The notes below the pieces were generated by a model. That model did not search any database. It was not told where the DNA came from and was given only the letters and a program-made list of their open reading frames with translations. The position numbers and the translations under genes are program-made. From a virus (lineage: Duplodnaviria; Caudoviricetes): a stretch of 64,000 nucleotides of DNA. The stretch is taken from positions 8,275-72,274 of IMG/VR virus record IMGVR_UViG_3300021958_011004; one strand, written 5' to 3'. Below, one piece after another: positions 14,526-63,641 of the stretch; the stretch's first letter is position 1, and each line of letters begins with the position of its first letter.

Positions 14526-15206
14526 ATGTTTATCTACAATGACAACATCGGTTTTGTTGAGTATGTTCAACACATGGGTGATGACCTAACAATCGTAAAT
14601 GCAGCAAGAGTTAGCTTTGGCAAACAAAAATCAGCGCTCGATGTCAGAGACGAGAAGCTAATAAAATACCTAATTGCCAACAAACACACATCTACTTTAG
14701 AACATAATGTTGTTACCTTTAGATTCAAGGTACCACTTTTCGTAAGAGGTCAACATCACAGACACAGAACGTGGTCTTACAACGAAGTCAGTAGAAGATA
14801 CACAGAAGAGAACTTACAATTCTATGAGCCGACTTCTTTTAGAACTCAACACAAATCAAATCGTCAAGCAAGCAATGAAGACCAGGTCAATCCTGTAATA
14901 TGGCCTGACTTAGCAGACCCAGACTATGGCACATGCGCGGCAGAAGCCATCAAAAATCATCACCAAACTTCACTTGACCTATATAACAGGCTAGTTAGCG
15001 AAGGTGTCTGTAGAGAGCAGGCGCGTGGCGTTCTGCCTCAGAATCTTTATACTGAGTATTACGGCACGACAAATCTTAACAACTTAATTAAGTTTATTAA
15101 ACTAAGAGAAGATTCGCATGCTCAATGGGAGATTCAACAAGTCGCTCGGGCTTGTAGAGAAATAGTAACTGAATTATGGCCAGTAGCAATGAAACACTTA
15201 GAATAA
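14526..15206 (+). CDS. thyX: FAD-dependent thymidylate synthase
   Basis: IVNAARVSF, H.S.LEH, RHRTWSYNEVSRRY, EQARGVLP; GGAGG RBS. Confidence 0.95.
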   Translation: MFIYNDNIGFVEYVQHMGDDLTIVNAARVSFGKQKSALDVRDEKLIKYLIANKHTSTLEHNVVTFRFKVPLFVRGQHHRHRTWSYNEVSRRYTEENLQFYEPTSFRTQHKSNRQASNEDQVNPVIWPDLADPDYGTCAAEAIKNHHQTSLDLYNRLVSEGVCREQARGVLPQNLYTEYYGTTNLNNLIKFIKLREDSHAQWEIQQVARACREIVTELWPVAMKHLE

Positions 15207-50970: not shown

Positions 50971-51665
50971 TATGCACCTCTAATAATTTGTAAGATTTTA
51001 TCAGCTTTTTCAAATCTCTTTTCAATCACTGACCATCTTAGCTGTTTCATCATTGCAGTTAAATATGTCTTTGCATCTTTTAAATAGTCTTTGTAATAAG
51101 CATGTTGCCACATATCAACTACAATGACAGGATACATTCCCACAGGAACGTTTTCTGAATGTAAGTCAATAAATGTGTTCATATAGCTTTGTGTATATGT
51201 GTTTAAATAAGTCACAACCCATCCACAACGTGAGCTTAAAGCACATGCCATGAAATCTTTCTGCCATTCATCGAAAGAACCAAAGTCTCTATTGAGTCTC
51301 ATGTAAGATAGAGAATCCATACCAATTTGAGAATTTGCATCTGCCATATTTGCAAAGAAAAGCTCATGAAGATAAGCACCGTTCATATTATATGTTTCAT
51401 CAATTTTAACGCTGCGATACATGTGACGGTTTGAATTGACATTTGATTTATCTGCACCATCTAGTTCTGCGCTAGCTTGATTAAATGACTCAATATAACC
51501 TTTGTATAATTTAAAATGATTATCAATGTTTGCATCACTTAAAAAATCAGTTCTTACTTCAAATTGCTTTGGTTGTGCAACCATTGCTTCGTTTAGTTTT
51601 TTATCTTCAACATCAAGCGTCTTTCTAACTAAGTCTTGAATTTTTTTGTTAAATAATGCGTCCAT
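50970..51665 (-). CDS. Fe/Mn superoxide dismutase-like protein
   Basis: NHFKLYKGY, LHELFF, FGSFDEW, GWVV, DMWQHAYY. Confidence 0.82.
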   Translation of the reverse strand: MDALFNKKIQDLVRKTLDVEDKKLNEAMVAQPKQFEVRTDFLSDANIDNHFKLYKGYIESFNQASAELDGADKSNVNSNRHMYRSVKIDETYNMNGAYLHELFFANMADANSQIGMDSLSYMRLNRDFGSFDEWQKDFMACALSSRCGWVVTYLNTYTQSYMNTFIDLHSENVPVGMYPVIVVDMWQHAYYKDYLKDAKTYLTAMMKQLRWSVIEKRFEKADKILQIIRGA

Positions 51666-51946: not shown

Positions 51947-52363
51947 TTATTCTTTACAAACTGTTCTTACTGTTATTCCTGCGTCCTTTAAAATCTTTAT
52001 TGAATTCTCAGAGTAAGGATAAAACTCAGAATACACAACTTCACTAATACCAGCATTCACTATCGCCTTTGCACAAACATCGCAAGGAGACAGTGTTAAA
52101 TACATCTTCTTCTTTTTTGGATAATTGTAATCACACTTAATTAGCGCATTAATTTCTGCGTGAATAAAACCACTTTGTCCCTGTTCCAAAGACTCTCTTT
52201 TATTACTTCCACCTTTCTGGTCTCCGTTGTATCCTATTGATAGAACCTGAGTATTTTCTTCATTTACAATAACAGCGCCAACCTTGTGTTTTGTGTCAGG
52301 TGAGCGCTGTGAAATTGTATGAGCAAAATTAATCCAAATTTCATCCCATCCCGGTCTTTTCAT
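51947..52363 (-). CDS. dCMP deaminase (ComEB-like)
   Basis: KVGAVIV, SIGYNG, HAEINAL, PCDVC. Confidence 0.88.
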   Translation of the reverse strand: MKRPGWDEIWINFAHTISQRSPDTKHKVGAVIVNEENTQVLSIGYNGDQKGGSNKRESLEQGQSGFIHAEINALIKCDYNYPKKKKMYLTLSPCDVCAKAIVNAGISEVVYSEFYPYSENSIKILKDAGITVRTVCKE

Positions 52364-52371
52364 TTTTTTTG

Positions 52372-52971
52372 CTATTCCTCAAAAGGGTCGTATTTAAATA
52401 ATTCAAAATCTTTGTAATAAAACTCTCTAATTAAATTCTTGGAATTGTCATTAAAAACTTCCAAATAGTCCATTTTTTTATTATGTGAGTTTAGAATTTT
52501 AATTTCATCATCAATATCAACAATGTTATTTTCTTTTAAAAAAGAAAACAGAGGTGTCATCAATTCTTGCTTGAATATTTTAGACTTCTCATTTAAGAAA
52601 GCATATTGAGGAATCCAGTGATTATTATCAACATGATATCCTTGCATCGGTAATATTGTTTTAAACATAACATCTATCACATAATTGTAATCAATCTTAC
52701 TACCTGACTCACAATGTGCTCTTCTTACTTGATTTAAATGTGATAATGCCCGTGAAAAAGGATTTCTAACGACTGCAAATGAAATCTCTGGATTTGCTTT
52801 TATAAAATTATCTTTATATTCATAATAGCAATTATGATGAGAGTTTATAATTCTCAATGCTTTGTCTTCAACCCATCCATTTCTTTCCAAAAGATTTCTA
52901 ATACTACTTCCACCTGTTTTTGGAATGTGTGAAAAGTGAATTATTCTTCCTTGCCTTTCCCAAAACGACAC
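52372..52971 (-). CDS. Sulfotransferase-family protein (Sulfotransfer_2-like)
   Basis: HIPKTGGSSI, FAVVRNPFSRALS, HWIPQ, Y..DFELF.Y. Confidence 0.82.
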   Translation of the reverse strand: MSFWERQGRIIHFSHIPKTGGSSIRNLLERNGWVEDKALRIINSHHNCYYEYKDNFIKANPEISFAVVRNPFSRALSHLNQVRRAHCESGSKIDYNYVIDVMFKTILPMQGYHVDNNHWIPQYAFLNEKSKIFKQELMTPLFSFLKENNIVDIDDEIKILNSHNKKMDYLEVFNDNSKNLIREFYYKDFELFKYDPFEE

Positions 52972-53115
52972 TATCTTTTCCTTGCTTTTATCTTGTTAGA
53001 ATACTTGTCTTTGTAGAATGTTGCTGTTGGGTGATTTGAGCACTCTATTTTTAGACCACTATTTACTACAACAATCCAATTCTGTTTAACAGAATTATAC
53101 TTTATGTATGGGCAT

Positions 53116-53967
53116 TTAATCATTCTTTGTTTCTTCCTTGTCAAACAAATCATCAACATTTGTGTCTCCTGCTAGCCTAAAACCAGCAGCCTTTTTATGA
53201 CCACCGCCGCCAAACTTCTTGGCAACCTCTGAAACATCTATCGTATCATGGAATGCTCTTAAACTAACTTTAATATCTTTATCATTGTGATCATAATACC
53301 AAATCATTGCATAATCACAATCAGGAGAAAGTCTCGCTCCTATCTCACTCATCCAGTGAGATGCATTAACTACCATAACGTGTTTACCGTCTAGATGCCT
53401 TTCAGCTGCCTTATCACAAACTTTCTTAACAACTGTCTTTGAATATGCAAGAATATAACTTCCTCGCTTAACAGCATCATCAAAAACTGAATCATCTTCA
53501 AATTTTTCAAATTCTTCAAATTCAAAAGGAACCATGTCAAAAGCTGCACTAAATTCTTTTGAATAAGGTAACTCCCATTTCCACAAGTCTCTATCAGTAA
53601 TATACTGAATAAACTTTGGAGCTTCTTTGCCAGGGTGAAAGAAATCCCAAGCAAGTGTAGCTCCTGATTTATTCATATCAAATATGGTGTTTGATATATC
53701 ATGCAACTCAACCATCGCTGACTTATGATGATCTATAACAAGTAAGTCATTGGCTTCTTCAATCATCTTCTTTGTTACTTCATTTTTAAAAGAAAAGTCA
53801 AGAATAACAACGTTTTTATCTGTTACATCAGGAGGAGGAGCGCCATGACTGCATGCATGATACTCTGCTCTATTTCCTAGTAGTTTCCAAGCTGAATAAG
53901 CGGATCCAAATCCATCTGTGCAATTTGCATGGTATATAACACAATTAACACTTGAAGGGTCTAACAT
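53116..53967 (-). CDS. DHH/DHHA1 phosphoesterase (NrnB-like)
   Basis: YHANCTDG, IDHH, SLRA, FGGGGHKKAAG. Confidence 0.88.
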   Translation of the reverse strand: MLDPSSVNCVIYHANCTDGFGSAYSAWKLLGNRAEYHACSHGAPPPDVTDKNVVILDFSFKNEVTKKMIEEANDLLVIDHHKSAMVELHDISNTIFDMNKSGATLAWDFFHPGKEAPKFIQYITDRDLWKWELPYSKEFSAAFDMVPFEFEEFEKFEDDSVFDDAVKRGSYILAYSKTVVKKVCDKAAERHLDGKHVMVVNASHWMSEIGARLSPDCDYAMIWYYDHNDKDIKVSLRAFHDTIDVSEVAKKFGGGGHKKAAGFRLAGDTNVDDLFDKEETKND

Positions 53968-54012
53968 CTAATACTCCATGTTGTTCTTTGGTTCATAACT
54001 ATCTAAGCAACC

Positions 54013-54582
54013 CTATTCTTTCATGTGGTCATGATGTGCCTGACATCTTGGTTCATATAATTCTTCACCACCAACCTGTATTTTTACATTAGCGTTACTC
54101 AAACTATATTGAATCTTTTTTGATGTGTATCTTGCATCACTTCTGCAAACCGTGCAAACAGCTGTACATTTAACAATTTCTGTACAATAAGGCATTACTT
54201 CTTTAACTTCTTCAAATGGTTCACCTAAAAAATTAAGCTCAATTGAAGAAATAAAAACATCATAACCTTTTCTAAAGAGCTTAATACAAGCTTCAGCAGC
54301 TCCAGGAATCATGAATATCTCATCAACAGCTACACAATCAACATCAACATTACTGCTAGCTATAATTTCAAGTATTTCCTTTCCATTCTCAACTTGAAAA
54401 CACTTGACATGAGCATCATTGTGTGTGACAATTACACCATCGACGGAATATCTATCATCCATCTTGGGCTTAAAAGACAACGTAGTCTTACCTTGATAGT
54501 GTAATCTGTCAATCTTCTGTAACAGTCTAGTTGTTTTTGAACTAAACATAGGCCCAGTATATAAAACCAATTCTGTGTTCAT
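54013..54582 (-). CDS. tdk: Thymidine kinase (type II)
   Basis: TGPMFSSKT, VDE, CTVC, QVGG.E.YEPRC. Confidence 0.92.
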   Translation of the reverse strand: MNTELVLYTGPMFSSKTTRLLQKIDRLHYQGKTTLSFKPKMDDRYSVDGVIVTHNDAHVKCFQVENGKEILEIIASSNVDVDCVAVDEIFMIPGAAEACIKLFRKGYDVFISSIELNFLGEPFEEVKEVMPYCTEIVKCTAVCTVCRSDARYTSKKIQYSLSNANVKIQVGGEELYEPRCQAHHDHMKE

Positions 54583-55593
54583 TTAATCTAGCTCCCACCA
54601 TTTAATAGTTTCTTCTAAGCCATCCCAAAATCTAACCAGTGGCTTATATCCAAACTCTCTTTCAGCTTTTGAAACGTCAGCTTGAGTGTGCATAACATCG
54701 CCAGGTCGCCACGGGGCATCAACAACATCAACATTGAAACGAACCTTAAAATATTCTAAAATCTCTCTATTTGATGTTCTGTCATTACAAGCAATGTTAA
54801 AATAGTCACCTTTAAAGGGTTCTTCTCTTTCTGCAGCCAAGACATTAGCACTTACGACGTTATCAATATAGCACATGTCTCTTGATTGTGAACCATCACC
54901 ATCTGATCTACAAGAACCACCTGTCTTTACAGCGTTGCACCATGCAGAAACAGCAGTTGAGTAAGGTGAGTCGCCATATTGCCCAGGACCAAAGACATTA
55001 AAGTATCGCAAACAAACAACATCAAGCTGATATAAATCCCAACAAAGTTTCGCAAAATCTTCAATAGCTGATTTCTGCCATGCGTAAGGTGACTTAGGAT
55101 TCTTTGGTGCAGTTTCCTTTGTTGGTAAATCATCAGCACCGCCATAAACTGAAGAAGAAGAAGCAAATACAATTCTTTTAATTCCACCCTCTTTGCAAGA
55201 TTCAAAAAGAGCAACAGTTTTATTGATGTTTGTATTTGTTGTTTCAGAAGGATGTTCAACAGAATAACCTACACGAGGAACTGCAGCTTGATGAAAAACA
55301 TAGTCATAATAGTTTTCTTCAATGTTGCTTAAGAGAAATGGACTAGCAAAGTCATCTTGAATAACAAGCACTTCATCATCTTCTCTTGTTACTGTTCCTT
55401 TTTCAATTTGGCCGTAGTAAATATCCAAAAAAGAAGCGTTAGGTAGTATTCTTTTCTTTAATCCATCAAGAAGCTCTAGATGACCATTTGACATATCGTC
55501 CACAACATCAACTCTCCATCCTTTACTGATTAATTCTTTTGCAAGATTGCTTCCAATAAATCCACAGCCACCAGTTATTAGTGCTCTTTTCAT
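54583..55593 (-). CDS. NAD-dependent nucleotide-sugar epimerase/dehydratase (WbpP/GalE-like)
   Basis: TGGCGFIGS, ASSSSVYG, PYAWQK, RYFNVFGP, RPGDV. Confidence 0.9.
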   Translation of the reverse strand: MKRALITGGCGFIGSNLAKELISKGWRVDVVDDMSNGHLELLDGLKKRILPNASFLDIYYGQIEKGTVTREDDEVLVIQDDFASPFLLSNIEENYYDYVFHQAAVPRVGYSVEHPSETTNTNINKTVALFESCKEGGIKRIVFASSSSVYGGADDLPTKETAPKNPKSPYAWQKSAIEDFAKLCWDLYQLDVVCLRYFNVFGPGQYGDSPYSTAVSAWCNAVKTGGSCRSDGDGSQSRDMCYIDNVVSANVLAAEREEPFKGDYFNIACNDRTSNREILEYFKVRFNVDVVDAPWRPGDVMHTQADVSKAEREFGYKPLVRFWDGLEETIKWWELD

Positions 55594-55847
55594 ACACCTT
55601 CTCCTATCATTTTTTGTATTTCACTTCTGTGTATTGTTTTTATTTCAAACCCTTTCTCTAAAAGGTTTTTCCAGGTCTCAGGAGACCCATTGTAAACTTT
55701 ATAATCTTCACCCTCTGTTATATAAATGAATTTATTCATGTAGTGATGACGCATCTGTGCCCAAAACATACCGTGCTTTCTTGGCAACCAAACACATTTA
55801 TTTTTATCATCCTGAATATATTCAAACAGCAAGGAGTCATTTTTCAC
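55590..55847 (-). CDS. Hypothetical protein
   Basis: Coupled ORF. Confidence 0.5.
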   Translation of the reverse strand: MKNDSLLFEYIQDDKNKCVWLPRKHGMFWAQMRHHYMNKFIYITEGEDYKVYNGSPETWKNLLEKGFEIKTIHRSEIQKMIGEGV

Positions 55848-56269
55848 TGTCCAGTACTCCCAAATCCACCTTCACCACGATCTGTTTCAGAAAGTTCATC
55901 AACCTCTTCAAACTCAATGAAAGGACGTGGCATAATAATTAATTGTGCAATTCTATCGCCTTTTTTGTAATGAGTTTCAGAAAAACCCTTGAATCCAAAC
56001 TTAACAATAACTTCTCCACGATAACCGGCATCAATTACACCAACACTATTTCGAAGATGATATCCTGTCTTTGAAATAGAAGACCGAGGAAAAAGCAAAC
56101 CAACATAACCTAATGGTATCTCAAATGCCAATCCAGTCTTAAACACAGTGTTACCAGCTGCATCTATTGTTGGGTCACTAACACAATGTAAATCTACACC
56201 AGCGTCATCTTGTTTTGCGTATGCTGGAATCACTGCGTTGCGATGTAACTTTTTAATTCTTACTTTCAA
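55844..56269 (-). CDS. dut: Trimeric dUTPase
   Basis: AGVDL, PRSS, GVIDAGYRGE, RIAQ, RGEGGFGSTG. Confidence 0.96.
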   Translation of the reverse strand: MKVRIKKLHRNAVIPAYAKQDDAGVDLHCVSDPTIDAAGNTVFKTGLAFEIPLGYVGLLFPRSSISKTGYHLRNSVGVIDAGYRGEVIVKFGFKGFSETHYKKGDRIAQLIIMPRPFIEFEEVDELSETDRGEGGFGSTGQ

Positions 56270-56279
56270 TTTTACCTCT

Positions 56280-57188
56280 TTAAATTATGTGTGCGGAGTT
56301 AATTACAAATTTCATTTTACAGAAATTTTTATCATTGTTCAGGTTAAATTTGTTAAAAACATCTCTTGCAAGACTCTTTAAAAAGTTTAAATCATAATAC
56401 AAAGTATCTTTAACATTTGAAGACCTTAAGAAGAACTGACAATCTAATCCATCTTCACGTATTAAAAAATGAGCTAATGAAATACACGTGTCATCTGTAT
56501 AGATAAAACGTCTTGAACTCAAAGACTCTTTTCTATTGTATTCATTATTACCTTCTAACTCATTGTCGAGTTTATCAAACAAACGTTTTCTAATGCCATC
56601 GTAATAATCAATTTCTTTATGATATGTTAGGTCAAGGTTATTAACATCAAGAAACCTACCATCATCATAATGAGTAAAATTAATACCAACACACTCAGCT
56701 GTGTCAGACTGTAGACAAATACTTTGAGTAGCTTTTTGAAGAACTTTAAAAGATTCATTTTCAAACCTGTCTAGCTGATCTGCTATACTTTTAACTATTT
56801 CTTCATCAACTTCTTTGCGAATAACCATTACGTTAGGATAACATTCAAACTCTTCAGCTGCTTCTTGAAACTTTTGGTAAACATATTCCAAGCTTTCAAG
56901 ATTCTGAATTTCATCACCTCGTTTTTCATACCTTTCTTTTATTACTTCCCAAGGAGGCAAAAGAAGAATTACAAAATTATTGAGGTTATAAAGTTCTTGT
57001 CTTAATAGTTCAACCGCACGAAAAGTATCACGACCATATTGCTGCGCATAAATCAACATTGAAATACCTGAACGGTCTCTAATGTTCCACTTATAACCCG
57101 TTTGTTTATGAAACTGATTATAAAATGTTGTTTTACCTGCTAGGTCCGGTCCTTCTAAGATAATGTAATTTATTCTATTTGAAATCAT
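56280..57188 (-). CDS. dNMP kinase fused to thymidylate-synthase/dCMP-hydroxymethylase-like domain
   Basis: ILEGPDLAGKTT + DRS (TMK fold); SSRRF, TCISLAHF, LRSSN, YYDL (TS fold). Confidence 0.7.
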   Translation of the reverse strand: MISNRINYIILEGPDLAGKTTFYNQFHKQTGYKWNIRDRSGISMLIYAQQYGRDTFRAVELLRQELYNLNNFVILLLPPWEVIKERYEKRGDEIQNLESLEYVYQKFQEAAEEFECYPNVMVIRKEVDEEIVKSIADQLDRFENESFKVLQKATQSICLQSDTAECVGINFTHYDDGRFLDVNNLDLTYHKEIDYYDGIRKRLFDKLDNELEGNNEYNRKESLSSRRFIYTDDTCISLAHFLIREDGLDCQFFLRSSNVKDTLYYDLNFLKSLARDVFNKFNLNNDKNFCKMKFVINSAHII

Positions 57189-57199
57189 TTTAACCTCTA

Positions 57200-58258
57200 C
57201 TACACAACAAGTGGACGAATCTTTCTAGAACTAGTGCTTGGACCCCAGTTTTTATCTGCTGAAACTTCGGCAAGCCAAATTGTAAACTTTTCCATTCCAT
57301 CAGGTAGTTCACCCCAAACACGCAACCAACCTGAATTACTTTCATTGTCAACAATTTTGATACGATAGAATATCTTTTTATTTCTTGTCGTTTTTCTAAT
57401 AAAGTCAACAGCACAAAACCATGCAATTTGTTTAGCACCGGGAGCTAATTGTAAAACAGATTTAACATTAGAATTTCTAATCTTTTGCATCAAACCTGAA
57501 GGAAAGGCAATGTCATCACGAATTGTTGAACATAACTCTTGATACATTTCAAGTTTATCAACACGAGACCAATCATCAATATCTTTTGACTCATCAATCA
57601 AAACAGGCAAGATTAAAGGAGCACCTTCTTTCTTTGCTTTTCTTTCAGACATTCCATAATGACCTTTTCGCAATGTGTTGTAATTACCCACAATAATCTC
57701 ATATGCCTGTTTGTGATTTCGAATAGAACCATCAATAAACTCATCAAGTGAATCCAAAGCCTCAATCTTACAAAGAGAAGTGAATCCAGTCTTGTTAAGT
57801 TTTGAATGTTTCCATTTACCACCTTCATCAAATAACAAATCTGACATTGCTTTATAGGGTCTATATTGAACAATTTCTTCAACAGCCTTGTCACCTAAAC
57901 CCTTAATTGAAGTTAAAGGCGGCACAAAAGCATTACGCTTTTCCGACCATGACCATTCGTAACCAGAATAGTTGATATCAGGTGGGGCAATATCGTAGTC
58001 CATTGCTTTGATTTCTGAAATAGCTTTTGTTAGAGCTTTTGGGTTATTGTTTTCTGATTGTAGAACTGTGGCTAACCAGTCTGTTTCGTAATAGGTGTGC
58101 AACCAAGCTGCATAATAAGAATCAATAGCATAAGCAACAGCATGGGAATTTGATGATAACATCCCATTTGACAAAAAGTATTGATGATCTTTATGTTCGA
58201 CTTCTAAGTCATAAGTTTCTTGCATTCCTTTAAATTCTATGCTTTTGATTTTTGGCAT
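57200..58258 (-). CDS. dnaE: DNA polymerase III alpha, C-terminal part (IntC + C-extein)
   Basis: 37-aa IntC ending SSN then SHAVAYA; HhH IKGLGDKAVEEI; OB-fold tail; AGGAG RBS. Confidence 0.92.
   Translation of the reverse strand: MPKIKSIEFKGMQETYDLEVEHKDHQYFLSNGMLSSNSHAVAYAIDSYYAAWLHTYYETDWLATVLQSENNNPKALTKAISEIKAMDYDIAPPDINYSGYEWSWSEKRNAFVPPLTSIKGLGDKAVEEIVQYRPYKAMSDLLFDEGGKWKHSKLNKTGFTSLCKIEALDSLDEFIDGSIRNHKQAYEIIVGNYNTLRKGHYGMSERKAKKEGAPLILPVLIDESKDIDDWSRVDKLEMYQELCSTIRDDIAFPSGLMQKIRNSNVKSVLQLAPGAKQIAWFCAVDFIRKTTRNKKIFYRIKIVDNESNSGWLRVWGELPDGMEKFTIWLAEVSADKNWGPSTSSRKIRPLVV
58148..58258 (-). mobile_element. Split intein C-fragment (37 aa)
   Basis: MPKIKSIEFKGMQETYDLEVEHKDHQYFLSNGMLSSN; block F D, terminal Asn, +1 Ser. 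Confidence 0.9.
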
Positions 58259-58281
58259 TGATTCTCCTAGTTTTATTTTAT

Positions 58282-58310
58282 ATTATACAGTCTAATCTTT
58301 GTTATTGCAT
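58282..58310 (-). promoter_or_regulatory. Promoter ATGCAA-N17-TATAAT for dnaE-C
   Basis: Class consensus; -35 lies in last codons of endonuclease gene. Confidence 0.7.
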
Positions 58311-59281
58311 GTGTAAGAAGTGCCTATTAAAAACAAACCTCTTTCTTTGTTGTCAATTAAATTGAATATTCTTTTTATTGAATCTTCACTAAACACCCCA
58401 CCTGAATTATAAGAATATTGATCATGAGCAACACGAATAACTGTCCAGCCCTCATCTACCATGACAAAATTTAATTCATTATCTTTTTTAATATTCTTTT
58501 TTAATGCTTCAACACCATGAATGTTATTAAAGTGATGAACACCGTCAAACTCAACAATTATTTTATTTTCAAGCGACATGATGTCTATTTGTCTTTTTCC
58601 TGACTTTGTTGTCTTAAATTTGTTAACACGTCGTAACTGTTGATTTCTTTTAAAAAAAGAATACTTTTTATTTAAGATTTCAAATAATTGTGTTTCTGGT
58701 TTTGATTTCCAAGAGTTAATCATTACACTTGTGCATTTGTTGTAAAACTCTTCAGGATTGTTTTCTCTCCACTCTTTTAATTGTCTTGAGCGTTTTTCTA
58801 AAATTTCTTTTCTGGCTGAAGTCTGCTTGGCAGTCTTTGAAGATTTCTCTCTAAACTCTTTTGTCTTGTTTAATCTGGTTAAGTTTTCTCTTCTTGCTGC
58901 TCTAGCACTCTCTGAGTTCATTATTCCTTCTGAAGTTTTTTTACCTAATTTTTCTCGCCACTCTTTTAAATCATTGCCCTTTTCTTTTTCTCTTTTTATC
59001 CAGTCGTAGTTTTGTGTTTCAGAATATCTTTTTTTTGAAGATTGACAAATTGTCGGACCAAATTTTTTCTCATATTCAGACTTTGAAATATTGTGTGATT
59101 TAATATGTGATGTAATTGACTTACCAATCACACCACACACTTTACATTCAACATAATCAATATTTTCAATAGCGCTTTCTTTCCACTTTAAACACTTCTT
59201 TTGATGATTTGTTAAGCTGCTTCTTCTTTCATACTTTCGGCCACAGCTACAATCGAAAGATCTTCTTGTAATATCACCCAT
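58292..59281 (-). CDS. Free-standing Vsr/DUF559-like homing endonuclease
   Basis: N-terminal Zn fingers; SKPE, IDI....KIIVEFDGVHHF, D..LN...GWTVIRV; GGAGG RBS within dnaE-N. Confidence 0.85.
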   Translation of the reverse strand: MGDITRRSFDCSCGRKYERRSSLTNHQKKCLKWKESAIENIDYVECKVCGVIGKSITSHIKSHNISKSEYEKKFGPTICQSSKKRYSETQNYDWIKREKEKGNDLKEWREKLGKKTSEGIMNSESARAARRENLTRLNKTKEFREKSSKTAKQTSARKEILEKRSRQLKEWRENNPEEFYNKCTSVMINSWKSKPETQLFEILNKKYSFFKRNQQLRRVNKFKTTKSGKRQIDIMSLENKIIVEFDGVHHFNNIHGVEALKKNIKKDNELNFVMVDEGWTVIRVAHDQYSYNSGGVFSEDSIKRIFNLIDNKERGLFLIGTSYTCNNKD

Positions 59282-59541
59282 AACGGTAGCATCCTCCCAT
59301 CTTCTACTCTAAATTTGTGATGCATGGTACATGTTACCGACTGACCGTCATCTAATGTAATCTCAAAAGTTGGAATCTTACCATGATAATGATTTGACAT
59401 TACCTTTGTATAGATTTCTTCTTTTGTTTCTTCATCACGAGAACGAACATAAGAACCAGGAATTACATTTTGAATCTGTTCAGTGCAAATAAAATCACCC
59501 TGCTTATTATATATATCGACCTCAGTATCAAATGTACAGGA
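59212..59541 (-). mobile_element. Split intein N-fragment (109 aa, starts with Ser)
   Basis: SCTFDTEV (block A), VTCTMHHKF (block B TxxH), LPL. Confidence 0.88.
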
Positions 59542-62121
59542 TTTATTAAACCCGTATGCAGAAAAGAATTCAATTCTTTCCCACAACTCAGTGCTCACAC
59601 TTTCAGGAACACCGTTTAGTTCTTTTGCACCTTGAATGAACTTACGTCTAGCCACAGCCCGTTCACCCTCTTTAGCATCATTTGCATCCAAAGATTTCTT
59701 AACCAAAGTCTTTCTAAGTTTATCAGACTCACCTGGTGAGAATCCAGAAAGCTTCTGTGCCAAAAGCATGAACTGTTCTTGGAATGTAACGTGACCAAAT
59801 GTTGGGCCTAAGATTTCTTCAATCACAGGATGCGGATATTTAACATTTGATGAATCCGCTTTGTCCTTGATATACTTTTTATGTACGTTGGCTCGTAATG
59901 GTCCAGGGCGGTATATCGCTGTAATAGCACCTAATTCTTCAATGTTTGTTGGTTTTGCATCCTCACAGAAGTTTCGAGCACCTTCCGCAGTGAATTGAAA
60001 GATACCAACCTTTCGCCTTTGATGATATACATGTTGCCAGACTTCTTGATCACTTTGTTCAATGTATCGACAATTAAGATGCTCATCAAAGAAAGCACGA
60101 ACATCAGAGAAAGGTATTTCTTCAATTGCACAATTCAGGGCTTTCTTTTTTCTAATAATACGTCTAATGCAGTTTTCAACATCTTTCATTAGCGTCAAAC
60201 CTAAGAAGTCAAACTTAACAAAACCATTATCTTCAAGATTTCTAAAGTTCATACCTTCAGACCATGGTGTTTGTAGGTCACCCCTAACACCAATAATTGG
60301 CATTGATTGTTCCAAGACATCAGGAGGACCAATAATAACACCGCCAGCATGACGACCAATAGAACGATTTTGCATAAATAGAGCTTCAATGTGTTCTTTT
60401 ACTTTGGGATACTTTTCCATGAATTCACGATAAGTCTTGGAATGTTCCATACAATCTTCATGTTTCAGAACAAAGACAGACTTTTCTGTGTTTTCATCAC
60501 GAGCAAGAGACATTACTTCATCTTGCAATGGGCCAGTCATTTTATTAACTTCAGCAAAGTCAACACCGTAAAACTTAGCAATATCTTTAACTAGTGACTT
60601 AAGCTTAAGTGTATTAAAGTTGGAAACTGGAATAACAGCATGGTCACCGAATAATTCACGTGCAGCATTAATCAATGCATCACGGTCACCGGCATCAGAA
60701 TCAATATCGGGAAACCCGGTACGATGACGACCTAGGAATCTTTCCCACAGCAAATTGTATTTCAGCGGGTCCATTTGTGTAATCCCTAACAAGAAATTAA
60801 CCAAACTTCCCCCTCCACTTCCGCGAGCAGCGCCGAATAAGGTGTGGTCAGCAGCCTTGTGGAAAACCTCGTACATTACAAGGAAATAGTTTTCAAAACC
60901 AAGATACTTAATATCTGATAATTCATGCTTAGCACGTTCAACATATTCAGGCTTTGTATGATAACCTTCACGAACAAGTGCTTCTTTTACCTTGTCTGCT
61001 AATTGCTCAAAGGCTGTTTTTTCCTTTGTGTTGTAATCTGGTAGTTTAACCTTAGTGTCAATCCAGCAGTCTTCATATTTATCCCACACAAGGTCGTGTG
61101 TTCTTTCAATTGAATCTTTTACAGCTTGTTCATAACCTTCATAAGAATCTTTGTATTCATCATAGTGACGTGTGAATTCACCCCACATCTGTTCAGCATT
61201 CTTAGGATACAATTCACACTTAAGTTCATCAAAATCAGGCAAAGGAGACGGATCATTACCCATCCAGCCAAGCTTCTTGTATAATTCACGTGCTTCCCAC
61301 TTGTCAGGAGAATAGTAGTGTGAATCTGCTGTTGAAATAAGCTTGATTCCTGTTTGGTCAGCATGACGTAACAAGTGATGATTTACAAGATGTTGTTGCT
61401 TAAGCCGATTAAATTGCAATTCCAAGAAGAAATTTTCTTCACCAACAGCATCAACAAACTTATCTGTTAAGTTGTGAAGCTCACGCTGAATATCTTCATC
61501 AGAGAGTTTAAGAGCATTACCACGCATAATTCTGTTTGAATACACACCGCCTAAACATGCAGTTGAAACTGTTAAGCCTTCATTATAACGCTTAAGCAAG
61601 TCAAAATCAATACGTGGATATCGATAAAAACCTTCTGTATAAGCACGTTTAATTAGCGTAAACAGATTTGCCAGACCAATCCTGTTTTGCGCTGTTATAA
61701 CCAAGTGGTAACGACGCTTCCATTCGTTTGTGTCCAAAGTGAAAGTTTTAGTTTCATCTTCGTTTTCAATTACGTGACCGCCTTCTTCATCTTCTTTAAT
61801 AGCAGCTTGCTTGTTTTTCTTTCTTGCTTCTTTTGCTGCTTCATAATCTTTCTTCCATTGTGAAAGTGAAGGTACAAAATAGAATTCACAGCCGTAGACT
61901 TGACGATATTTCTTGCCCGACTTTTTAACCTTTTCAGAATATTTCCTTGCGTGTGCCAGACCAGAACCATTTCCGTGGTCTGTGATTGCCCAAGCATCCA
62001 TTCCGTTTTCTAAAACAAAGTCAATATGATTTGATGGGTAACCTAATCCGTCAAAAACACTGAATCCTGTGTGGCAGTGCAACCCAACAAAGCGTGTAGG
62101 TGGTGGTAGTAAAACGCTCAT
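59212..62121 (-). CDS. dnaE: DNA polymerase III alpha, N-terminal part (PHP + Pol + IntN)
   Basis: LHCHT.FS, ITDHG, TADSHY, RGSGGGS, PDIDSD, KFDFLGL, YGFNK then intein. Confidence 0.95.
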   Translation of the reverse strand: MSVLLPPPTRFVGLHCHTGFSVFDGLGYPSNHIDFVLENGMDAWAITDHGNGSGLAHARKYSEKVKKSGKKYRQVYGCEFYFVPSLSQWKKDYEAAKEARKKNKQAAIKEDEEGGHVIENEDETKTFTLDTNEWKRRYHLVITAQNRIGLANLFTLIKRAYTEGFYRYPRIDFDLLKRYNEGLTVSTACLGGVYSNRIMRGNALKLSDEDIQRELHNLTDKFVDAVGEENFFLELQFNRLKQQHLVNHHLLRHADQTGIKLISTADSHYYSPDKWEARELYKKLGWMGNDPSPLPDFDELKCELYPKNAEQMWGEFTRHYDEYKDSYEGYEQAVKDSIERTHDLVWDKYEDCWIDTKVKLPDYNTKEKTAFEQLADKVKEALVREGYHTKPEYVERAKHELSDIKYLGFENYFLVMYEVFHKAADHTLFGAARGSGGGSLVNFLLGITQMDPLKYNLLWERFLGRHRTGFPDIDSDAGDRDALINAARELFGDHAVIPVSNFNTLKLKSLVKDIAKFYGVDFAEVNKMTGPLQDEVMSLARDENTEKSVFVLKHEDCMEHSKTYREFMEKYPKVKEHIEALFMQNRSIGRHAGGVIIGPPDVLEQSMPIIGVRGDLQTPWSEGMNFRNLEDNGFVKFDFLGLTLMKDVENCIRRIIRKKKALNCAIEEIPFSDVRAFFDEHLNCRYIEQSDQEVWQHVYHQRRKVGIFQFTAEGARNFCEDAKPTNIEELGAITAIYRPGPLRANVHKKYIKDKADSSNVKYPHPVIEEILGPTFGHVTFQEQFMLLAQKLSGFSPGESDKLRKTLVKKSLDANDAKEGERAVARRKFIQGAKELNGVPESVSTELWERIEFFSAYGFNKSCTFDTEVDIYNKQGDFICTEQIQNVIPGSYVRSRDEETKEEIYTKVMSNHYHGKIPTFEITLDDGQSVTCTMHHKFRVEDGRMLPLWVILQEDLSIVAVAESMKEEAA

Positions 62122-62135
62122 GTTTCTCCTTAAAT

Positions 62136-62171
62136 AAAAAATGTCCTGATTATATTATAACAACCAGGACA
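62136..62171 (-). terminator. Hairpin/terminator enclosing the dnaE -10 element
   Basis: TGTCCTG...CAGGACA followed by T run on minus strand; loop contains TATAAT. Confidence 0.5.
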
Positions 62172-62182
62172 CCAAATTACAT
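62154..62182 (-). promoter_or_regulatory. Promoter ATGTAA-N17-TATAAT for dnaE-N
   Basis: Class consensus preceded by TGTAAAAC. Confidence 0.72.
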
Positions 62183-62200
62183 GTTTTACAAAATTGCTAT

Positions 62201-62650
62201 TTATTCAATTTCACCCTGATATCGTTCAGTAATCAAATAACCTTCAGACACACACCGGCCAAGATAGTCATCAAGTTCTGTCAACGATCGACATACCTTA
62301 ATACCACTTGCTGCAAGCATCAGGTTAAACTGAGCACCTGCAGGTAAACCATCGCAGAAATAAACAATCGGCTTTTCTAAGCAATTGAAATATCCTGCTT
62401 CAAAGATTGTTCCCATATCTTTGTTTCGAGTATTGCAAAGCAACCATTCAGATTCATGCAGATGTTTAATGTTTCCTGCAAAGATTTGGTCCTGAACAGA
62501 ATCAGAAGCATCATTGTCACATAGATTCTCATCTTTTGGTGAGAAATAAGTGATTCCGTGCTTTTCAAAAACAGTTTTAATGTTTTCTACTTCTTGCAAC
62601 CATTCTGGGTTAAACCATCCACTTGCCAAATAAACTTTTCCTAAACTCAT
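62201..62650 (-). CDS. Nucleoside 2-deoxyribosyltransferase / dNMP N-glycosidase family
   Basis: VYLASGWF, FSP, DMGTIFEAGY, NLML. Confidence 0.85.
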   Translation of the reverse strand: MSLGKVYLASGWFNPEWLQEVENIKTVFEKHGITYFSPKDENLCDNDASDSVQDQIFAGNIKHLHESEWLLCNTRNKDMGTIFEAGYFNCLEKPIVYFCDGLPAGAQFNLMLAASGIKVCRSLTELDDYLGRCVSEGYLITERYQGEIE

Positions 62651-62654
62651 ATCT

Positions 62655-63641
62655 TTATTCCCTTCCCATAAAATTGTTGTATTGTGTTGTTAGTTCGTTG
62701 ATTTCATTTAATGTCTCTTCCCAGAGTTGTGTAAAAACAGTTGGAGTACCTGGGTTATTTGTTCCATTGATATCTTCACGTCGTGCTTGATAAATCGAAT
62801 CATCAGGATGATATTCAAACAGATCGTTCTTAGGTTCTGGCCAGTACAGGTTTGTACCACGCGAAGTGAAGCCACCTTTACCATCAGGTACGCGGAAAGT
62901 TTTCACATAATGCATATCTGATTTATTAAAGTTAATTCGTGATGAAGCCTCAGGCAAGACTTTGATAACTTCACGTGCCATATAAGCAGCCAAAAGATTA
63001 TCAGCAGCAGGTTGAATTTGCATATCTTGTCGTTGTGCAATAAAACCTAACAAGTCTTTAAGATTAAGACGCATCAGATAGAAAGAAGTCATACATTTTG
63101 GAAGAATCATTCGAGCATCCATCATAGATACAGCTTTTGAATCTGTCATTTCTGCATAGAGTTGCTTTGATTCTTTTACAAGTTGCAGCCATCGTTCATA
63201 GAATTCTGGACTATTTTGAACAGCCTCAGGAACAACAGCAGGGTCATCACGCAAGTCACGGTCACCTGTACATTGTGCAGCAAAAGAACCGGCACGATGA
63301 CGAATGATATGAGTGACTTCTTGAAAAGAAAGACCGCTAAGTTTGAATGTAAAACCAAGACATTCCATTGGAGTTGGTAGAGCTCGGAAATTAAGTACAT
63401 CTTCTAGATTTGAAGAGAGTTCTTGTAGAGGAACAGTGCTGGGTAGCGTTTCATCATGGTGGTCAGCCCAAGTTGCTTTAACATATTGCCATGCAACATT
63501 TAGAGCTTGTGACCGTGTTGGTGCATCTACTAGCTCAACCTTTAGTGCTTTAAGATTATTGTAGAAAGTTGTGTTTGGTTCTTGACCGAACTTAAGTTCC
63601 ATTGGAAGATTGACCGGAGTCAGATTGGGATTTTGTGGCAT
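62655..63641 (-). CDS. Divergent ThyX-fold flavoprotein (second paralog)
   Basis: FTFKLSGLS, RHRAGSFAAQCTGDR, DARMILP, LKDLLGFIAQR..Q; extra C-terminal region. Confidence 0.75.
   Translation of the reverse strand: MPQNPNLTPVNLPMELKFGQEPNTTFYNNLKALKVELVDAPTRSQALNVAWQYVKATWADHHDETLPSTVPLQELSSNLEDVLNFRALPTPMECLGFTFKLSGLSFQEVTHIIRHRAGSFAAQCTGDRDLRDDPAVVPEAVQNSPEFYERWLQLVKESKQLYAEMTDSKAVSMMDARMILPKCMTSFYLMRLNLKDLLGFIAQRQDMQIQPAADNLLAAYMAREVIKVLPEASSRINFNKSDMHYVKTFRVPDGKGGFTSRGTNLYWPEPKNDLFEYHPDDSIYQARREDINGTNNPGTPTVFTQLWEETLNEINELTTQYNNFMGRE

What the first reader, a model, noticed from the sequence alone, without database searches (positions are those of the whole stretch)
51947..63641. Candidate novel pyrimidine-modification pathway flanking the DNA polymerase
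Seen in one co-directional run: divergent ThyX-fold protein, deoxyribosyltransferase/N-glycosidase, dnaE, kinase-TS-like fusion, dUTPase, nucleotide-sugar epimerase, TK, DHH phosphoesterase, sulfotransferase, dCMP deaminase. A canonical thyX 40 kb away already covers dTMP, so the two extra TS-type folds are free for other chemistry. Knowledge: phages with modified DNA place nucleotide-level modifying enzymes, a dedicated kinase and a clean-up hydrolase next to their polymerase (T4 hmC, SPO1 hmU, Z-genomes). Inference: a modified C or U is made at the nucleotide level, possibly further glycosylated/sulfated; flavin-dependent ThyX-fold involvement would be unusual.
Basis: inference. Interest (0 to 1): 0.8.

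Follow-up and report, generated by a model that had tools for sequence, protein, structure and literature searches.

The report
Phage module for a modified cytosine
An uncultured aquatic giant phage keeps, around its DNA polymerase gene, ordinary nucleotide-supply genes plus a virus-only set of four linked enzymes that probably makes a chemically altered cytosine building block for its DNA. The same set occurs in a cultured Geobacillus phage, so the idea can be tested directly.

Summary
The gene list is real, and all genes lie on the minus strand. The "dnaE" is a gene fractured by a split intein and a homing endonuclease.

Most genes are ordinary dNTP supply: dCMP deaminase, TK, dUTPase and an NrnA-like DHH. 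Four are unusual and linked:
- a true-type nucleoside deoxyribosyltransferase;
- a ThyX-fold protein with a rewired, invariant motif (RHRxxSFxAQCTGDR);
- a minimal ThyA-fold domain with the catalytic Cys and the cytosine-type Asp;
- the YorR/TMK-like kinase fused to that domain.

The block is syntenic in 80 of 80 IMG/VR loci. The ThyX-like motif was not found in 185,579 bacterial and archaeal genomes. In cultured Geobacillus phage GR1 the ThyX-like stop codon overlaps the start of a stand-alone mini-TS gene, with the kinase and NDT encoded separately.

My best reading (about 0.5) is pre-replicative synthesis of a C5-modified dCMP, of 5-hydroxy, 5-hydroxymethyl or 5-methyl type. The closest known enzymes are the flavin-dependent 5-hydroxy-dCMP synthases (PMC13326640).

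Sulfation and glycosylation are not supported. The sulfotransferase is an accessory gene (5 of 80 loci), and I found no family-wide DNA glycosyltransferase or dCTPase.

The scan had already flagged both odd proteins in other genomes of this phage family. The link to GR1 and the four-gene module are what this report adds.

The parts
62655..63641 (-). ThyX-fold flavoprotein paralogue (328 aa) with a rewired substrate loop and an inserted C-terminal region of about 60 aa
   Evidence: Pfam Thy1 66 bits; TIGR02170 42.4 against a cut-off of 87.9. AF2 model pLDDT 76; Z 15.6 to M. tuberculosis ThyX with 204 residues aligned. Against T. maritima ThyX: H53->L, E86->A, S88->C, R90->G, Y91->D; R78/H79/R80, T55, E58, R147 and R174 are kept. 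The motif is invariant across 17 relatives and phage GR1.
62201..62650 (-). Nucleoside 2-deoxyribosyltransferase (149 aa). Its start lies 4 nt after the ThyX-like stop.
   Evidence: PF05014 56.6 bits. Best solved relative is the true NDT 6evs, E 3.6e-8, with the D-x-G-T-x-x-E-x-G catalytic Glu aligned. It follows the ThyX-like gene in all 40 first loci, directly in most and within 3 kb in the rest. Junction sequence.
59539..62121 (-). DnaE-type polymerase, N-extein (861 aa: PHP, polymerase and finger domains)
   Evidence: PF02811, PF07733 and PF17657. Phage DnaE hits cover residues 11-861.
59212..59538 (-). Split-intein N half (about 108 aa) plus stop codon
   Evidence: Follows ...YGFNKS and begins C-T-F-D-T-E-V. 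Unsplit relatives read FNKSHAVAY without interruption. The boundary is uncertain by one residue (Ser1 or Cys1).
58292..59281 (-). Free-standing homing-endonuclease-like gene (329 aa) between the intein halves
   Evidence: DUF559 (Vsr-like) 23.2 bits against a cut-off of 20.6. Present between the dnaE halves only in some relatives (L035, L036, L165, L190, L200); most have an intact dnaE.
57200..58258 (-). Split-intein C half (37 aa, ends ...SSN) plus DnaE C-extein (HhH and the rest)
   Evidence: PF14579 HHH_6; phrog_405 DNA polymerase positions 793-998. Junction.
56748..57188 (-). YorR/TMK-like P-loop nucleotide kinase domain (residues 1-147 of the fusion)
   Evidence: P-loop GPDLAGKTT, DR motif and R-x3-RGDE lid. 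Z 13.3 to YorR 3kb2, and Z 11-12 to dTMP and deoxynucleoside kinases. Profile E 6.7e-11 to YorR.
56280..56747 (-). Minimal thymidylate-synthase (ThyA) fold domain (residues 148-302) with cytosine-type active-site residues
   Evidence: Model pLDDT 96.6. Z 12.4 to MilA 5b6e, 12.0 to HY126 dCMP hydroxylase AfhB 9iqu, and about 11 to ThyA. The profile aligns C235 = Cys146, R255-S256 = R166-S167, N258 = D169 and D266 = N177. All but position 258 are invariant in 85 homologues.
55844..56269 (-). Trimeric dUTPase
   Evidence: PF00692 95.3 bits. At this position in only 7 of 80 relatives.
54583..55593 (-). NAD-dependent nucleotide-sugar 4-epimerase/dehydratase (SDR). Conserved neighbour; its role in the pathway is not shown.
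   Evidence: PF01370 167 bits; the best NCBIfam matches, TviC and GalE, fall below their cut-offs. Present in 69 of 80 loci directly after the fusion gene.
54013..54582 (-). Thymidine kinase
   Evidence: PF00265 123.9 bits; 69 of 80 loci.
53116..53967 (-). NrnA-like DHH/DHHA1 phosphoesterase
   Evidence: PF01368 and PF02272; phrog_4771 at 2.9e-77. In 60 of 80 loci, at up to 87% identity.
52372..52971 (-). Sulfotransferase (accessory gene, not part of the conserved module)
   Evidence: PF03567 39.8 bits; phrog_3347. In only 5 of 80 loci, at 27-38% identity and at different positions.
51947..52363 (-). dCMP deaminase
   Evidence: PF00383 76.1 bits; 68 of 80 loci.
14526..15206 (+). Canonical flavin-dependent thymidylate synthase ThyX
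   Evidence: TIGR02170 172.6 bits against a cut-off of 87.9; motif RHRTWSYNEVSRRY. It co-exists with the ThyX-like gene in 4 of 5 long related records.

Best explanation
The stretch is the conserved replication and nucleotide-precursor block of a large family of uncultured aquatic giant phages. Most of its genes do ordinary work: dCMP deaminase, thymidine kinase, dUTPase and an NrnA-like DHH esterase feed dTTP synthesis and salvage for an AT-rich genome.

Embedded in the block is a four-protein module that I found only in viruses: (1) a true-type nucleoside deoxyribosyltransferase; (2) a ThyX-fold protein, probably a flavoprotein, whose nucleotide loop and folate-stacking His are replaced by a different invariant set that includes a Cys; (3) a stripped-down ThyA-fold domain that keeps the catalytic Cys, the phosphate-binding Arg/Ser residues and the Asp that selects cytosine; and (4) a YorR/TMK-like kinase fused to that domain.

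The most likely mechanism is as follows. The mini-TS domain binds dCMP and attacks C6 with its Cys. C5 then receives a new group (hydroxyl, hydroxymethyl or methyl). The fused kinase phosphorylates the product, and the phage DnaE incorporates it.

What is shown: the folds, the conserved residues, the fusion, the gene linkage and the virus-only distribution. What is inferred: the substrate, the product, the part played by the ThyX-like protein and the NDT, and whether the base ends up in DNA. The sulfotransferase is an accessory gene and not part of the module. The epimerase is a conserved neighbour whose role is open.
For: Fold and residues:
- The fusion model has pLDDT 96.6 and pTM 0.91.
- The C-domain matches MilA (Z 12.4), HY126 dCMP hydroxylase AfhB (Z 12.0), T4 dCMP hydroxymethylase and ThyA. 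The N-domain matches YorR and TMK (Z 13.3).
- The profile alignment to AfhB and ThyA places Cys, R-S, Asn (at D169) and Asp (at N177) in register.
- Cys235, R226, R227, R255, S256, D266, H300, E192 and Y195 are identical in all 81 fusion proteins examined. The four stand-alone GR1-clade copies keep Cys, R-S and Asp but read Gln at R227, and their E192/Y195/H300 columns did not align.

Literature parallel (PMC13326640):
- N177D marks dCMP use, and D169N marks flavin-dependent 5-hydroxy-dCMP synthases.
- In DLP3, RB69 and RL38J1 a TMK/YorR-like kinase gene lies next to the synthase. Here the two are fused.

Linkage:
- The ThyX-like gene is followed by the NDT gene in all 40 first loci, directly in most and within 3 kb in the rest.
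- dnaE is followed by the fusion gene in 80 of 80 loci.
- 14 of 14 long records carry both the ThyX-like gene and the fusion.
- In the cultured Geobacillus phage GR1 clade the ThyX-like stop overlaps the start of a stand-alone mini-TS gene (TAATG, with a GGAGG upstream). The mini-TS match has hhalign probability 96.7% and E 3.5e-10. The kinase and NDT are separate genes there.
- Between the two clades ThyX-like is 47% identical and NDT 41%, but DnaE only 23%.

Distribution:
- No relative was found in 185,579 bacterial and archaeal genomes.
- Canonical thyX is kept alongside the ThyX-like gene in 4 of 5 long records.
- No C5-cytosine DNA methyltransferase was found in 17 records.
Against: - No chemistry was measured, and no modified base is known for any member of either clade.
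- No MazG-type dCTPase was found in 5 long records that are 26-87% complete. Full replacement of cytosine therefore lacks its usual helper.
- The residue at ThyA position 169 is not fixed in the family (Asn 31, Asp 39, Glu 15 of 85). The hydroxylase signature therefore cannot name the product.
- The mini-TS domain lacks about 100 residues of a normal ThyA, including the W80/W83 region and the C-terminal tail. This is judged from spacing and length only. It scores nothing against PF00303, so it may not be a self-sufficient enzyme.
- The ThyX-like protein keeps R147 and R174, the residues that hold dUMP in ThyX. This fits a uracil substrate.
- In GR1 and one complete relative the ThyX-like gene is the only Thy1-family gene and no ThyA is present. 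It could simply be their thymidylate synthase.
- Co-occurrence inside one phage family is partly shared ancestry.
Confidence: 0.5

Rival explanations
1. No modified base is made. The ThyX-like protein is a divergent but ordinary dUMP-to-dTMP synthase (or an isozyme used under other conditions). The fusion is a dTMP/dNMP kinase whose mini-TS domain only binds a pyrimidine nucleotide, as a regulatory or channelling domain. The whole block then simply boosts dTTP for a 35% GC genome.
For: - R78/H79/R80, T55, E58, R147 and R174 of ThyX are kept.
- The T. maritima S88C mutant ThyX exists as a solved structure and is the top sequence hit.
- GR1 and a complete relative have no other Thy1 or ThyA gene.
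- The surrounding genes (dCMP deaminase, TK, dUTPase) all point to dTTP supply.
- No dCTPase and no shared DNA glycosyltransferase were found.
Against: - Canonical thyX is retained next to the ThyX-like gene across the marine family. This argues against redundancy.
- The mini-TS domain keeps a full catalytic set (Cys, Arg pair, R-S, His), and the Asp that switches ThyA-family enzymes from dUMP to dCMP is invariant in all 85 homologues examined. That is hard to explain for a mere binding domain or a dTMP route.
- ThyX residues H53, E86, R90 and Y91 are all replaced by a different invariant set.
Confidence: 0.25
2. The module works at the level of free base or nucleoside and its product does not enter DNA. 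One version is a MilA/MilB- or BcmA/BcmB-like pair, in which a TS-like enzyme and an NDT-family enzyme make a free modified pyrimidine. Another is a pool-editing or counter-defence device that reshapes host nucleotide pools.
For: - An NDT-family gene is the constant partner of the ThyX-like gene and is shared with GR1.
- MilA is the top structural match of the mini-TS domain.
- GR1 adds a YfbR-like 5'-deoxynucleotidase in the same cluster, which suggests traffic through nucleosides.
- TK lies in the block.
Against: - The NDT resembles true transferases (6evs, with the G-W-F type N-terminus and the catalytic Glu), not the nucleotide hydrolases.
- The genes always flank the replicative polymerase.
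- The fusion to a nucleotide kinase points toward making a dNDP/dNTP, not toward releasing a base.
Confidence: 0.15
3. One reading: the modified pyrimidine is further glycosylated and/or sulfated, using the neighbouring epimerase, the sulfotransferase and the DHH enzyme (as a PAP phosphatase).
For: - The epimerase follows the fusion gene in 69 of 80 loci.
- The window also encodes a phosphomannomutase and a weak nucleotidyltransferase-like protein.
- Known 5hoC and 5hmC pathways end in glycosylation (PMC13326640).
- GR1 has a gene annotated as a glycosyltransferase inside its cluster.
Against: - The sulfotransferase is in 5 of 80 loci, at different places and at 27-38% identity. DHH is in 60 of 80, so the two are not a pair.
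- GT1/GT4/GT2 genes occur in only 4 of 17 records, far from the module and in polysaccharide-type clusters.
- The GR1 'glycosyltransferase' has no Pfam match.
Confidence: 0.07

Closest known systems
Flavin-dependent 5-hydroxy-dCMP synthases of phages (HY126 AfhB, PDB 9iqu/9iqc; RB69 gp48; DLP3 gp80; RL38J1 gp216), with their neighbouring TMK/YorR-like 'nucleotide kinase' genes (PMC13326640)
   Same: - ThyA fold (Z 12.0 to 9iqu).
- Catalytic Cys, the SRR and R-S motifs, Asp at the N177 position, and in this window Asn at the D169 position, all in register.
- A TMK/YorR-type kinase is associated with the synthase. The DLP3 gp78 kinase hits the same YorR structure, 3kb2.
- The gene lies next to the phage DNA polymerase.
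   Different: - About 155 aa instead of 217-250, and the protein ends right after the His equivalent to H207.
- No PF00303 match.
- The kinase is fused rather than adjacent.
- The D169 position varies among Asn, Asp and Glu in the family.
- A ThyX-fold protein and an NDT are constant partners, and these are not part of the known pathway.
- No arabinose/UDP-sugar genes, DNA glycosyltransferases or dCTPase were found.
T4 dCMP hydroxymethylase gp42 with dNMP kinase gp1, and MilA (CMP hydroxymethylase) with MilB (an NDT-family N-glycosidase)
   Same: - A cytosine-specific ThyA-fold enzyme with Asp at the specificity site (1b5d, 5b6e).
- A kinase acts on the product (T4).
- A TS-type enzyme is paired with an NDT-family enzyme (MilA/MilB).
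   Different: - Those enzymes are full-length and folate-dependent. Here the folate-binding parts appear to be missing.
- The NDT looks like a transferase, not a nucleotide hydrolase.
- The kinase is of TMK/YorR type, not of gp1 type.
Flavin-dependent thymidylate synthase ThyX, and its neofunctionalised relative PolB (UMP/dUMP C5-methylase, PDB 4p5a/4p5b)
   Same: - ThyX fold (Z 15.6 to M. tuberculosis ThyX, 14.3 to PolB).
- The RHR flavin motif, T55, E58, R147 and R174 are kept.
   Different: - Fails the TIGR02170 cut-off.
- H53->L, E86->A, S88->C, R90->G and Y91->D, all invariant in the subfamily.
- A conserved insertion of about 60 residues before the last helix.
- Found only in viruses, and always alongside the mini-TS, kinase and NDT genes.
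'Fractured genes' with split inteins and a free-standing homing endonuclease (the arrangement described for environmental phage genes; recalled from Dassa et al. 2009, not re-read here) and the cyanobacterial split DnaE intein
   Same: The two intein halves end and begin two separate ORFs of an essential replication gene, with an endonuclease gene between them.
   Different: - The insertion site is within FNK(S)|SHAVAY of a phage DnaE.
- The endonuclease is DUF559/Vsr-like.
- The penultimate residue of the C-half is Ser, not His.

Membership tests
ThyX, flavin-dependent thymidylate synthase (TIGR02170 equivalog) | Scores above the curated equivalog cut-off | tested here: not met
   42.4 bits against a cut-off of 87.9. 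The canonical copy in the same window scores 172.6. The broader Pfam Thy1 cut-off is met (66 against 24.8).
ThyX, flavin-dependent thymidylate synthase (TIGR02170 equivalog) | ThyX motif RHR-x7-S-x-R-Y (Ser88, Arg90 and Tyr91 of T. maritima) and the folate-stacking His53 | tested here: not met
   Reads RHRAGSFAAQCTGDR, with Cys for Ser88, Gly for Arg90 and Asp for Tyr91. His53 is Leu. These residues are invariant in 17 relatives and in GR1.
ThyX, flavin-dependent thymidylate synthase (TIGR02170 equivalog) | ThyX fold with the flavin-binding RHR, Thr55, Glu58 and Arg174 | tested here: met
   Z 15.6, rmsd 3.1, 204 residues aligned to 3gwc. The residues are aligned. Flavin binding itself was not measured.
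ThyA-superfamily dCMP C5-modifying enzymes (T4 gp42, MilA, AfhB) | Thymidylate-synthase fold | tested here: met
   Residues 144-302: Z 12.4 (141 aligned) to 5b6e, 12.0 (147 aligned) to 9iqu, and about 11 to ThyA. Model pLDDT 96.6.
ThyA-superfamily dCMP C5-modifying enzymes (T4 gp42, MilA, AfhB) | Catalytic Cys (Cys146), the Arg126/Arg127 pair, Arg166-Ser167, and Asp in place of Asn177 for cytosine | tested here: met
   C235, R226/R227, R255-S256 and D266 are in register with AfhB and ThyA. C235, R255, S256 and D266 are invariant in all 85 homologues. R227 is Gln in the four GR1-clade copies.
ThyA-superfamily dCMP C5-modifying enzymes (T4 gp42, MilA, AfhB) | Complete cofactor pocket (W80/W83 region and the closing C-terminal tail), and recognition by PF00303 | tested here: not met
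   No PF00303 hit in the window or in 5 related records. There are only 34 residues between the Glu58-like E192 and R226, and the protein ends two residues after H300. The pocket was judged from spacing only, not from coordinates.
5-hydroxy-dCMP synthases (PMC13326640) | Asn at the ThyA Asp169 position together with Asp at the Asn177 position | tested here: met
   The window copy reads R-S-S-N-x7-D. Across the family, however, the position is Asn 31, Asp 39 and Glu 15 of 85. It cannot be used here to name the product.
5-hydroxy-dCMP synthases (PMC13326640) | Bound flavin and O2-dependent hydroxylation of dCMP | not testable with these tools
   This needs purified protein or the in vivo plasmid assay.
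Nucleoside 2-deoxyribosyltransferase (PF05014) | Pfam cut-off and the catalytic Glu in the D-x-G-T-x-x-E-x-G motif | tested here: met
   56.6 bits against a cut-off of 28.8. The motif DMGTIFEAG aligns with that of the true NDT 6evs at E 3.6e-8.
dTMP kinase / YorR-like P-loop nucleotide kinases | P-loop, DR motif, Arg-rich lid and the kinase fold | tested here: met
   GPDLAGKTT, D38-R39 and R86/R90-G-D-E are conserved. Z 13.3 to 3kb2. Profile E 6.7e-11 to YorR. Pfam TMK scores 25.6, just under its cut-off of 27. Substrate not tested.
Phage pathways that fully replace cytosine (T4 type) | A dCTPase that removes dCTP, and DNA glycosyltransferases | tested here: inconclusive
   No MazG hit in 5 records. 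GT1/GT4/GT2 genes occur in only 4 of 17 records, far from the module. All records are fragments (26-87% complete), and novel families would be missed.
Split intein in a fractured gene | N-half after the N-extein starting with Cys/Ser and block A; C-half ending in Asn followed by Ser/Cys/Thr; exteins contiguous in relatives | tested here: met
   ...FNKS|CTFDTEV... and ...SSN|SHAVAY. Relative L018 reads FNKSHAVAY. An endonuclease gene lies in between. No group I intron was found by Rfam.

The most novel reading that the evidence does not exclude
The minimal ThyA-fold domain has lost its own cofactor pocket and works with the rewired ThyX-fold flavoprotein as a two-protein catalyst. The mini-TS Cys activates dCMP at C6. 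The ThyX-like flavin then delivers the group for C5, either a one-carbon unit as an N5-iminium or an oxygen as a flavin hydroperoxide. The fused kinase and the NDT channel the substrate and the product. This would join the two unrelated thymidylate-synthase lineages in a single reaction and define a new, widespread DNA base pathway in marine giant phages and in Geobacillus phage GR1.
Probability: 0.15. Interest if true: 0.9.

Novelty: new variant of a known kind. Interest (0 to 1): 0.7.

Why it matters
Phage DNA base modifications decide which restriction and CRISPR defences work against a phage. They are also a source of new enzymes for DNA chemistry.

The module here is carried by a large family of aquatic giant phages. 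IMG/VR holds 153 relatives of the ThyX-like gene, and the metagenome protein search returned 976 matches, the best 120 at 81% identity or more.

The module combines both thymidylate-synthase folds with a kinase and a deoxyribosyltransferase. I did not find this combination described in the papers searched.

Because the same four proteins occur in the cultured Geobacillus phage GR1, the question 'what base do they make, if any' can be answered with one LC-MS run and a standard co-expression assay.

If the base is new or abundant, it would also affect how marine viromes are sequenced and how their hosts are predicted.

Tried and rejected
- **DHH as a PAP phosphatase partner of the sulfotransferase.** Rejected. 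DHH is in 60 of 80 loci and the sulfotransferase in 5 of 80, at varying places.
- **Group I intron in dnaE.** Rfam found none. The sequence shows a split intein.
- **Using the D169N signature to call the product 5-hydroxy-dCMP.** Rejected as decisive, because the position varies among N, D and E in the family.
- **Fused forms of the ThyX-like protein of 575 aa or more.** None found. This is weak evidence.
- **Bacterial or prophage homologues of the ThyX-like subfamily.** None in genome contigs.
- **Nucleotide-level relatives among sequenced phages.** None by megablast. DnaE is at most 29% identical to any deposited phage. The fusion protein has only kinase-half hits in Bacillus phages.
- **Classical ThyA, MazG and C5-cytosine methyltransferase.** No hits in related records.
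- **Variable insert between the NDT gene and dnaE in relatives.** It holds a C92 amidase, a TseH-like protein, a second SDR and DnaJ, with no recognisable glycosyltransferase.
- **Literature.** I found no paper describing this ThyX paralogue, the kinase/mini-TS fusion or phage GR1 DNA chemistry.

Full report
**Setting.** The window is 64 kb of a 72.3-kb viral contig. CheckV rates the contig about 26% complete. It has 35% GC and nearly all genes are on the minus strand. It has no nucleotide-level relative among deposited phages, and its DnaE is at most 29% identical to any of them. The rest of the window encodes a tmRNA, a tRNA, GroEL, a helicase, a 5'-3' exonuclease and several metabolic genes.

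**Observation.** The canonical thyX is real: 14526-15206 on the plus strand, TIGR02170 172.6 bits. Two points need correcting.
- 'dnaE' is a fractured gene. The first ORF ends with a split-intein N half that follows ...YGFNKS. A DUF559/Vsr-like endonuclease gene comes next. The following ORF begins with a 37-aa intein C half ending in Asn, and continues SHAVAY.
- Unsplit relatives read FNKSHAVAY without interruption. Rfam finds no intron.

**The kinase/TS-like fusion (56280-57188).** Pfam sees only half a thymidylate kinase. A full-database profile search found 262 cluster representatives, and most are full-length two-domain proteins. With 52 of them as the alignment, AlphaFold2 gave pLDDT 96.6 and pTM 0.91.
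- Residues 5-147 match SPbeta YorR (Z 13.3) and dTMP and deoxynucleoside kinases.
- Residues 144-302 match the thymidylate-synthase fold. The best matches are the cytosine-specific members: MilA at Z 12.4, phage HY126 dCMP hydroxylase AfhB at Z 12.0, and T4 dCMP hydroxymethylase.
- A profile search of PDB sequences aligns the motifs in register with AfhB and ThyA. SRRF corresponds to Arg126/127, C235 to Cys146, R255-S256 to Arg166-Ser167, N258 to Asp169, D266 to Asn177 and H300 to His207.
- In 85 homologues, Cys, R-S and the Asp are invariant. R227, His300, Glu192 and Tyr195 are also invariant in the 81 fusion proteins. Position 258 is Asn in 31, Asp in 39 and Glu in 15.
- The domain is only about 155 aa and ends two residues after His300. 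It has only 34 residues where ThyA has about 68 between Glu58 and Arg126. It scores nothing against PF00303. I infer that the normal folate pocket is missing, but I could not inspect coordinates.

**Relation to published work.** Lee et al. 2026 (PMC13326640) report three things.
- Phage ThyA homologues with N177D plus D169N are flavin-dependent 5-hydroxy-dCMP synthases.
- The 5-hydroxycytosine is then glycosylated in DNA.
- In DLP3, RB69 and RL38J1 a TMK/YorR-like 'nucleotide kinase' gene lies beside the synthase. DLP3 gp78 hits the same YorR structure, 3kb2.

The window's fusion has both signature residues and joins the two activities in one chain. Because position 169 toggles within the family, I do not use it to name the product.

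**The ThyX-like protein (62655-63641).** It passes Pfam Thy1 but fails the ThyX equivalog cut-off.
- Its model (pLDDT 76) matches ThyX at Z 15.6 over 204 residues. A poorly modelled, conserved insertion of about 60 residues precedes the last helix.
- Aligned to T. maritima ThyX, it keeps the RHR flavin motif, Thr55, Glu58, Arg147 and Arg174. It changes His53 to Leu, Glu86 to Ala, Ser88 to Cys, Arg90 to Gly and Tyr91 to Asp.
- The new motif RHRxxSFxAQCTGDR is invariant from 100% down to 45% identity.
- The metagenome protein search returned 976 matches, the best 120 at 81% identity or more. IMG/VR holds 153 relatives.
- None was found in one genome for each of 185,579 bacterial and archaeal species.
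- A canonical thyX is kept beside it in 4 of 5 long related records.

**Linkage.**
- In the first 40 related loci the ThyX-like gene is always followed by the NDT gene, directly in most and within 3 kb in the rest. In the window the gap is 4 nt.
- In 80 loci retrieved with the fusion protein the order is fixed: ThyX-like, NDT, a variable insert, dnaE, fusion, epimerase, TK, DHH, dCMP deaminase, SOD-like.
- Counts out of 80 loci:

| Gene | Loci |
|---|---|
| dnaE next to the fusion | 80 |
| epimerase | 69 |
| TK | 69 |
| dCMP deaminase | 68 |
| SOD-like | 64 |
| DHH | 60 |
| dUTPase at this position | 7 |
| sulfotransferase | 5 |

- All 14 long records tested carry both odd proteins.

Shared ancestry explains much of this, so the next comparison carries more weight.

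**The Geobacillus phage GR1 clade.** The cultured phage GR1 (OK896991.1) has a ThyX-like protein 47.7% identical over 94% of its length.
- Its stop codon overlaps (TAATG, with a GGAGG upstream) the start of a 151-aa 'hypothetical' protein. This protein is a stand-alone mini-TS domain: hhalign probability 96.7%, E 3.5e-10, with the Cys, RSSN and Asp kept.
- A separate P-loop kinase matching the fusion's N-domain and an NDT (41% identical) lie 1-5 kb upstream. DnaE follows downstream but is only 23% identical.
- Three IMG/VR contigs of the GR1 clade show the same layout.
- GR1 adds a nitroreductase-family gene directly upstream, a YfbR-like 5'-deoxynucleotidase, and a gene annotated as a glycosyltransferase that has no Pfam match.

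So four proteins travel together in two very distant phage lineages, and each link rests on a different kind of evidence. The kinase and mini-TS are fused in the marine phages. ThyX-like and mini-TS are translationally coupled in GR1. ThyX-like and NDT are coupled in the marine phages.

**What is not supported.**
- The sulfotransferase is a sporadic accessory gene. The DHH enzyme is therefore not its dedicated PAP phosphatase.
- GT1/GT4/GT2 genes occur in only 4 of 17 related records. They lie far from the module, in polysaccharide-type clusters.
- The variable insert in relatives holds no recognisable glycosyltransferase.
- No MazG dCTPase was found.
- No C5-cytosine methyltransferase was found either. 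This is compatible with C5-modified cytosine but is weak evidence.
- In GR1 and one complete relative the ThyX-like gene is the only Thy1-type gene and there is no ThyA. A third relative has a ThyA. An ordinary dTMP-synthase role for the ThyX-like protein therefore cannot be excluded.

**Conclusion.** The block is mostly ordinary nucleotide supply around a fractured DnaE. It also contains a virus-only four-protein module whose best reading (about 0.5) is pre-replicative synthesis and phosphorylation of a C5-modified dCMP. The product, the role of the ThyX-like protein and the role of the NDT are all inferred. The rivals are:
- no modification at all (0.25);
- a free-base or nucleoside product, or pool editing (0.15);

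The most novel reading that remains open is that the two TS folds act together, with the flavoprotein supplying the C5 group to a cofactor-less mini-TS (0.15).

**Earlier notes in this scan.** Notes from this scan had already flagged the same two proteins in other genomes of this family and reached similar readings. What this report adds:
- the link to the cultured phage GR1;
- the four-gene module;
- the variability at position 169;
- the accessory status of the sulfotransferase;
- the absence from cellular genomes.

Noticed in passing
window 12018-12406 (-): Phage-encoded tmRNA (Rfam RF00023, 85.7 bits; ARAGORN tag peptide ANNNAHYDSVALAA). The tag could help guess the host.
   Followed up: no
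window 50970-51665 (-): Fe/Mn superoxide-dismutase-like gene directly after the dCMP deaminase. It is kept at that place in 64 of 80 related loci. This is unusual for a phage and is possibly tied to flavin/oxygen chemistry in the block.
   Followed up: partly
window 57200-62121 (-): The exact intein boundary is ambiguous by one residue. A Cys1 start would leave an extra Ser in the spliced DnaE. A Ser1 start reproduces the FNKSHAVAY of unsplit relatives and aligns better with block A of the Npu DnaE intein (recalled). The C half ends S-N instead of the usual H-N.
   Followed up: partly
window 14526-15206 (+): The canonical thyX is one of the very few plus-strand genes in a window otherwise read on the minus strand. 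In more distant relatives it lies 1-3 kb upstream of the ThyX-like gene in the same orientation.
   Followed up: partly
window 298-1392, 23920-25128, 25632-26456, 28724-29680, 34206-35009 (-): Further metabolic genes: IMPDH/GMP-reductase family, a weak cytidylyltransferase-like protein, a PLP-dependent (PALP) enzyme, an amidohydrolase, and a eukaryotic-type phosphomannomutase.
   Followed up: no
L003 11503-18986; L018 11679-12749: Relatives carry a 2-7 kb variable insert between the NDT gene and dnaE. It holds a C92 permuted-papain amidase, a TseH-like protein, a second SDR epimerase and, in one lineage, a full DnaJ. The window has no insert there.
   Followed up: partly
related records G001 about 203-213 kb and G006 about 37-63 kb: Clusters of GT1/GT4 and GT2 glycosyltransferases in a few relatives. 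They look like polysaccharide-synthesis gene sets and lie far from the nucleotide module.
   Followed up: no
L041 (Geobacillus phage GR1) 23306-24538: An amidoligase and a gamma-glutamylcyclotransferase gene lie downstream of the replication block in GR1. PMC8989533 lists Pfam amidoligase matches among genes of unknown function on thymidine-hypermodification contigs.
   Followed up: no
window 39015-40631 (-): Phage-encoded GroEL-type chaperonin (PF00118, 215.7 bits).
   Followed up: no
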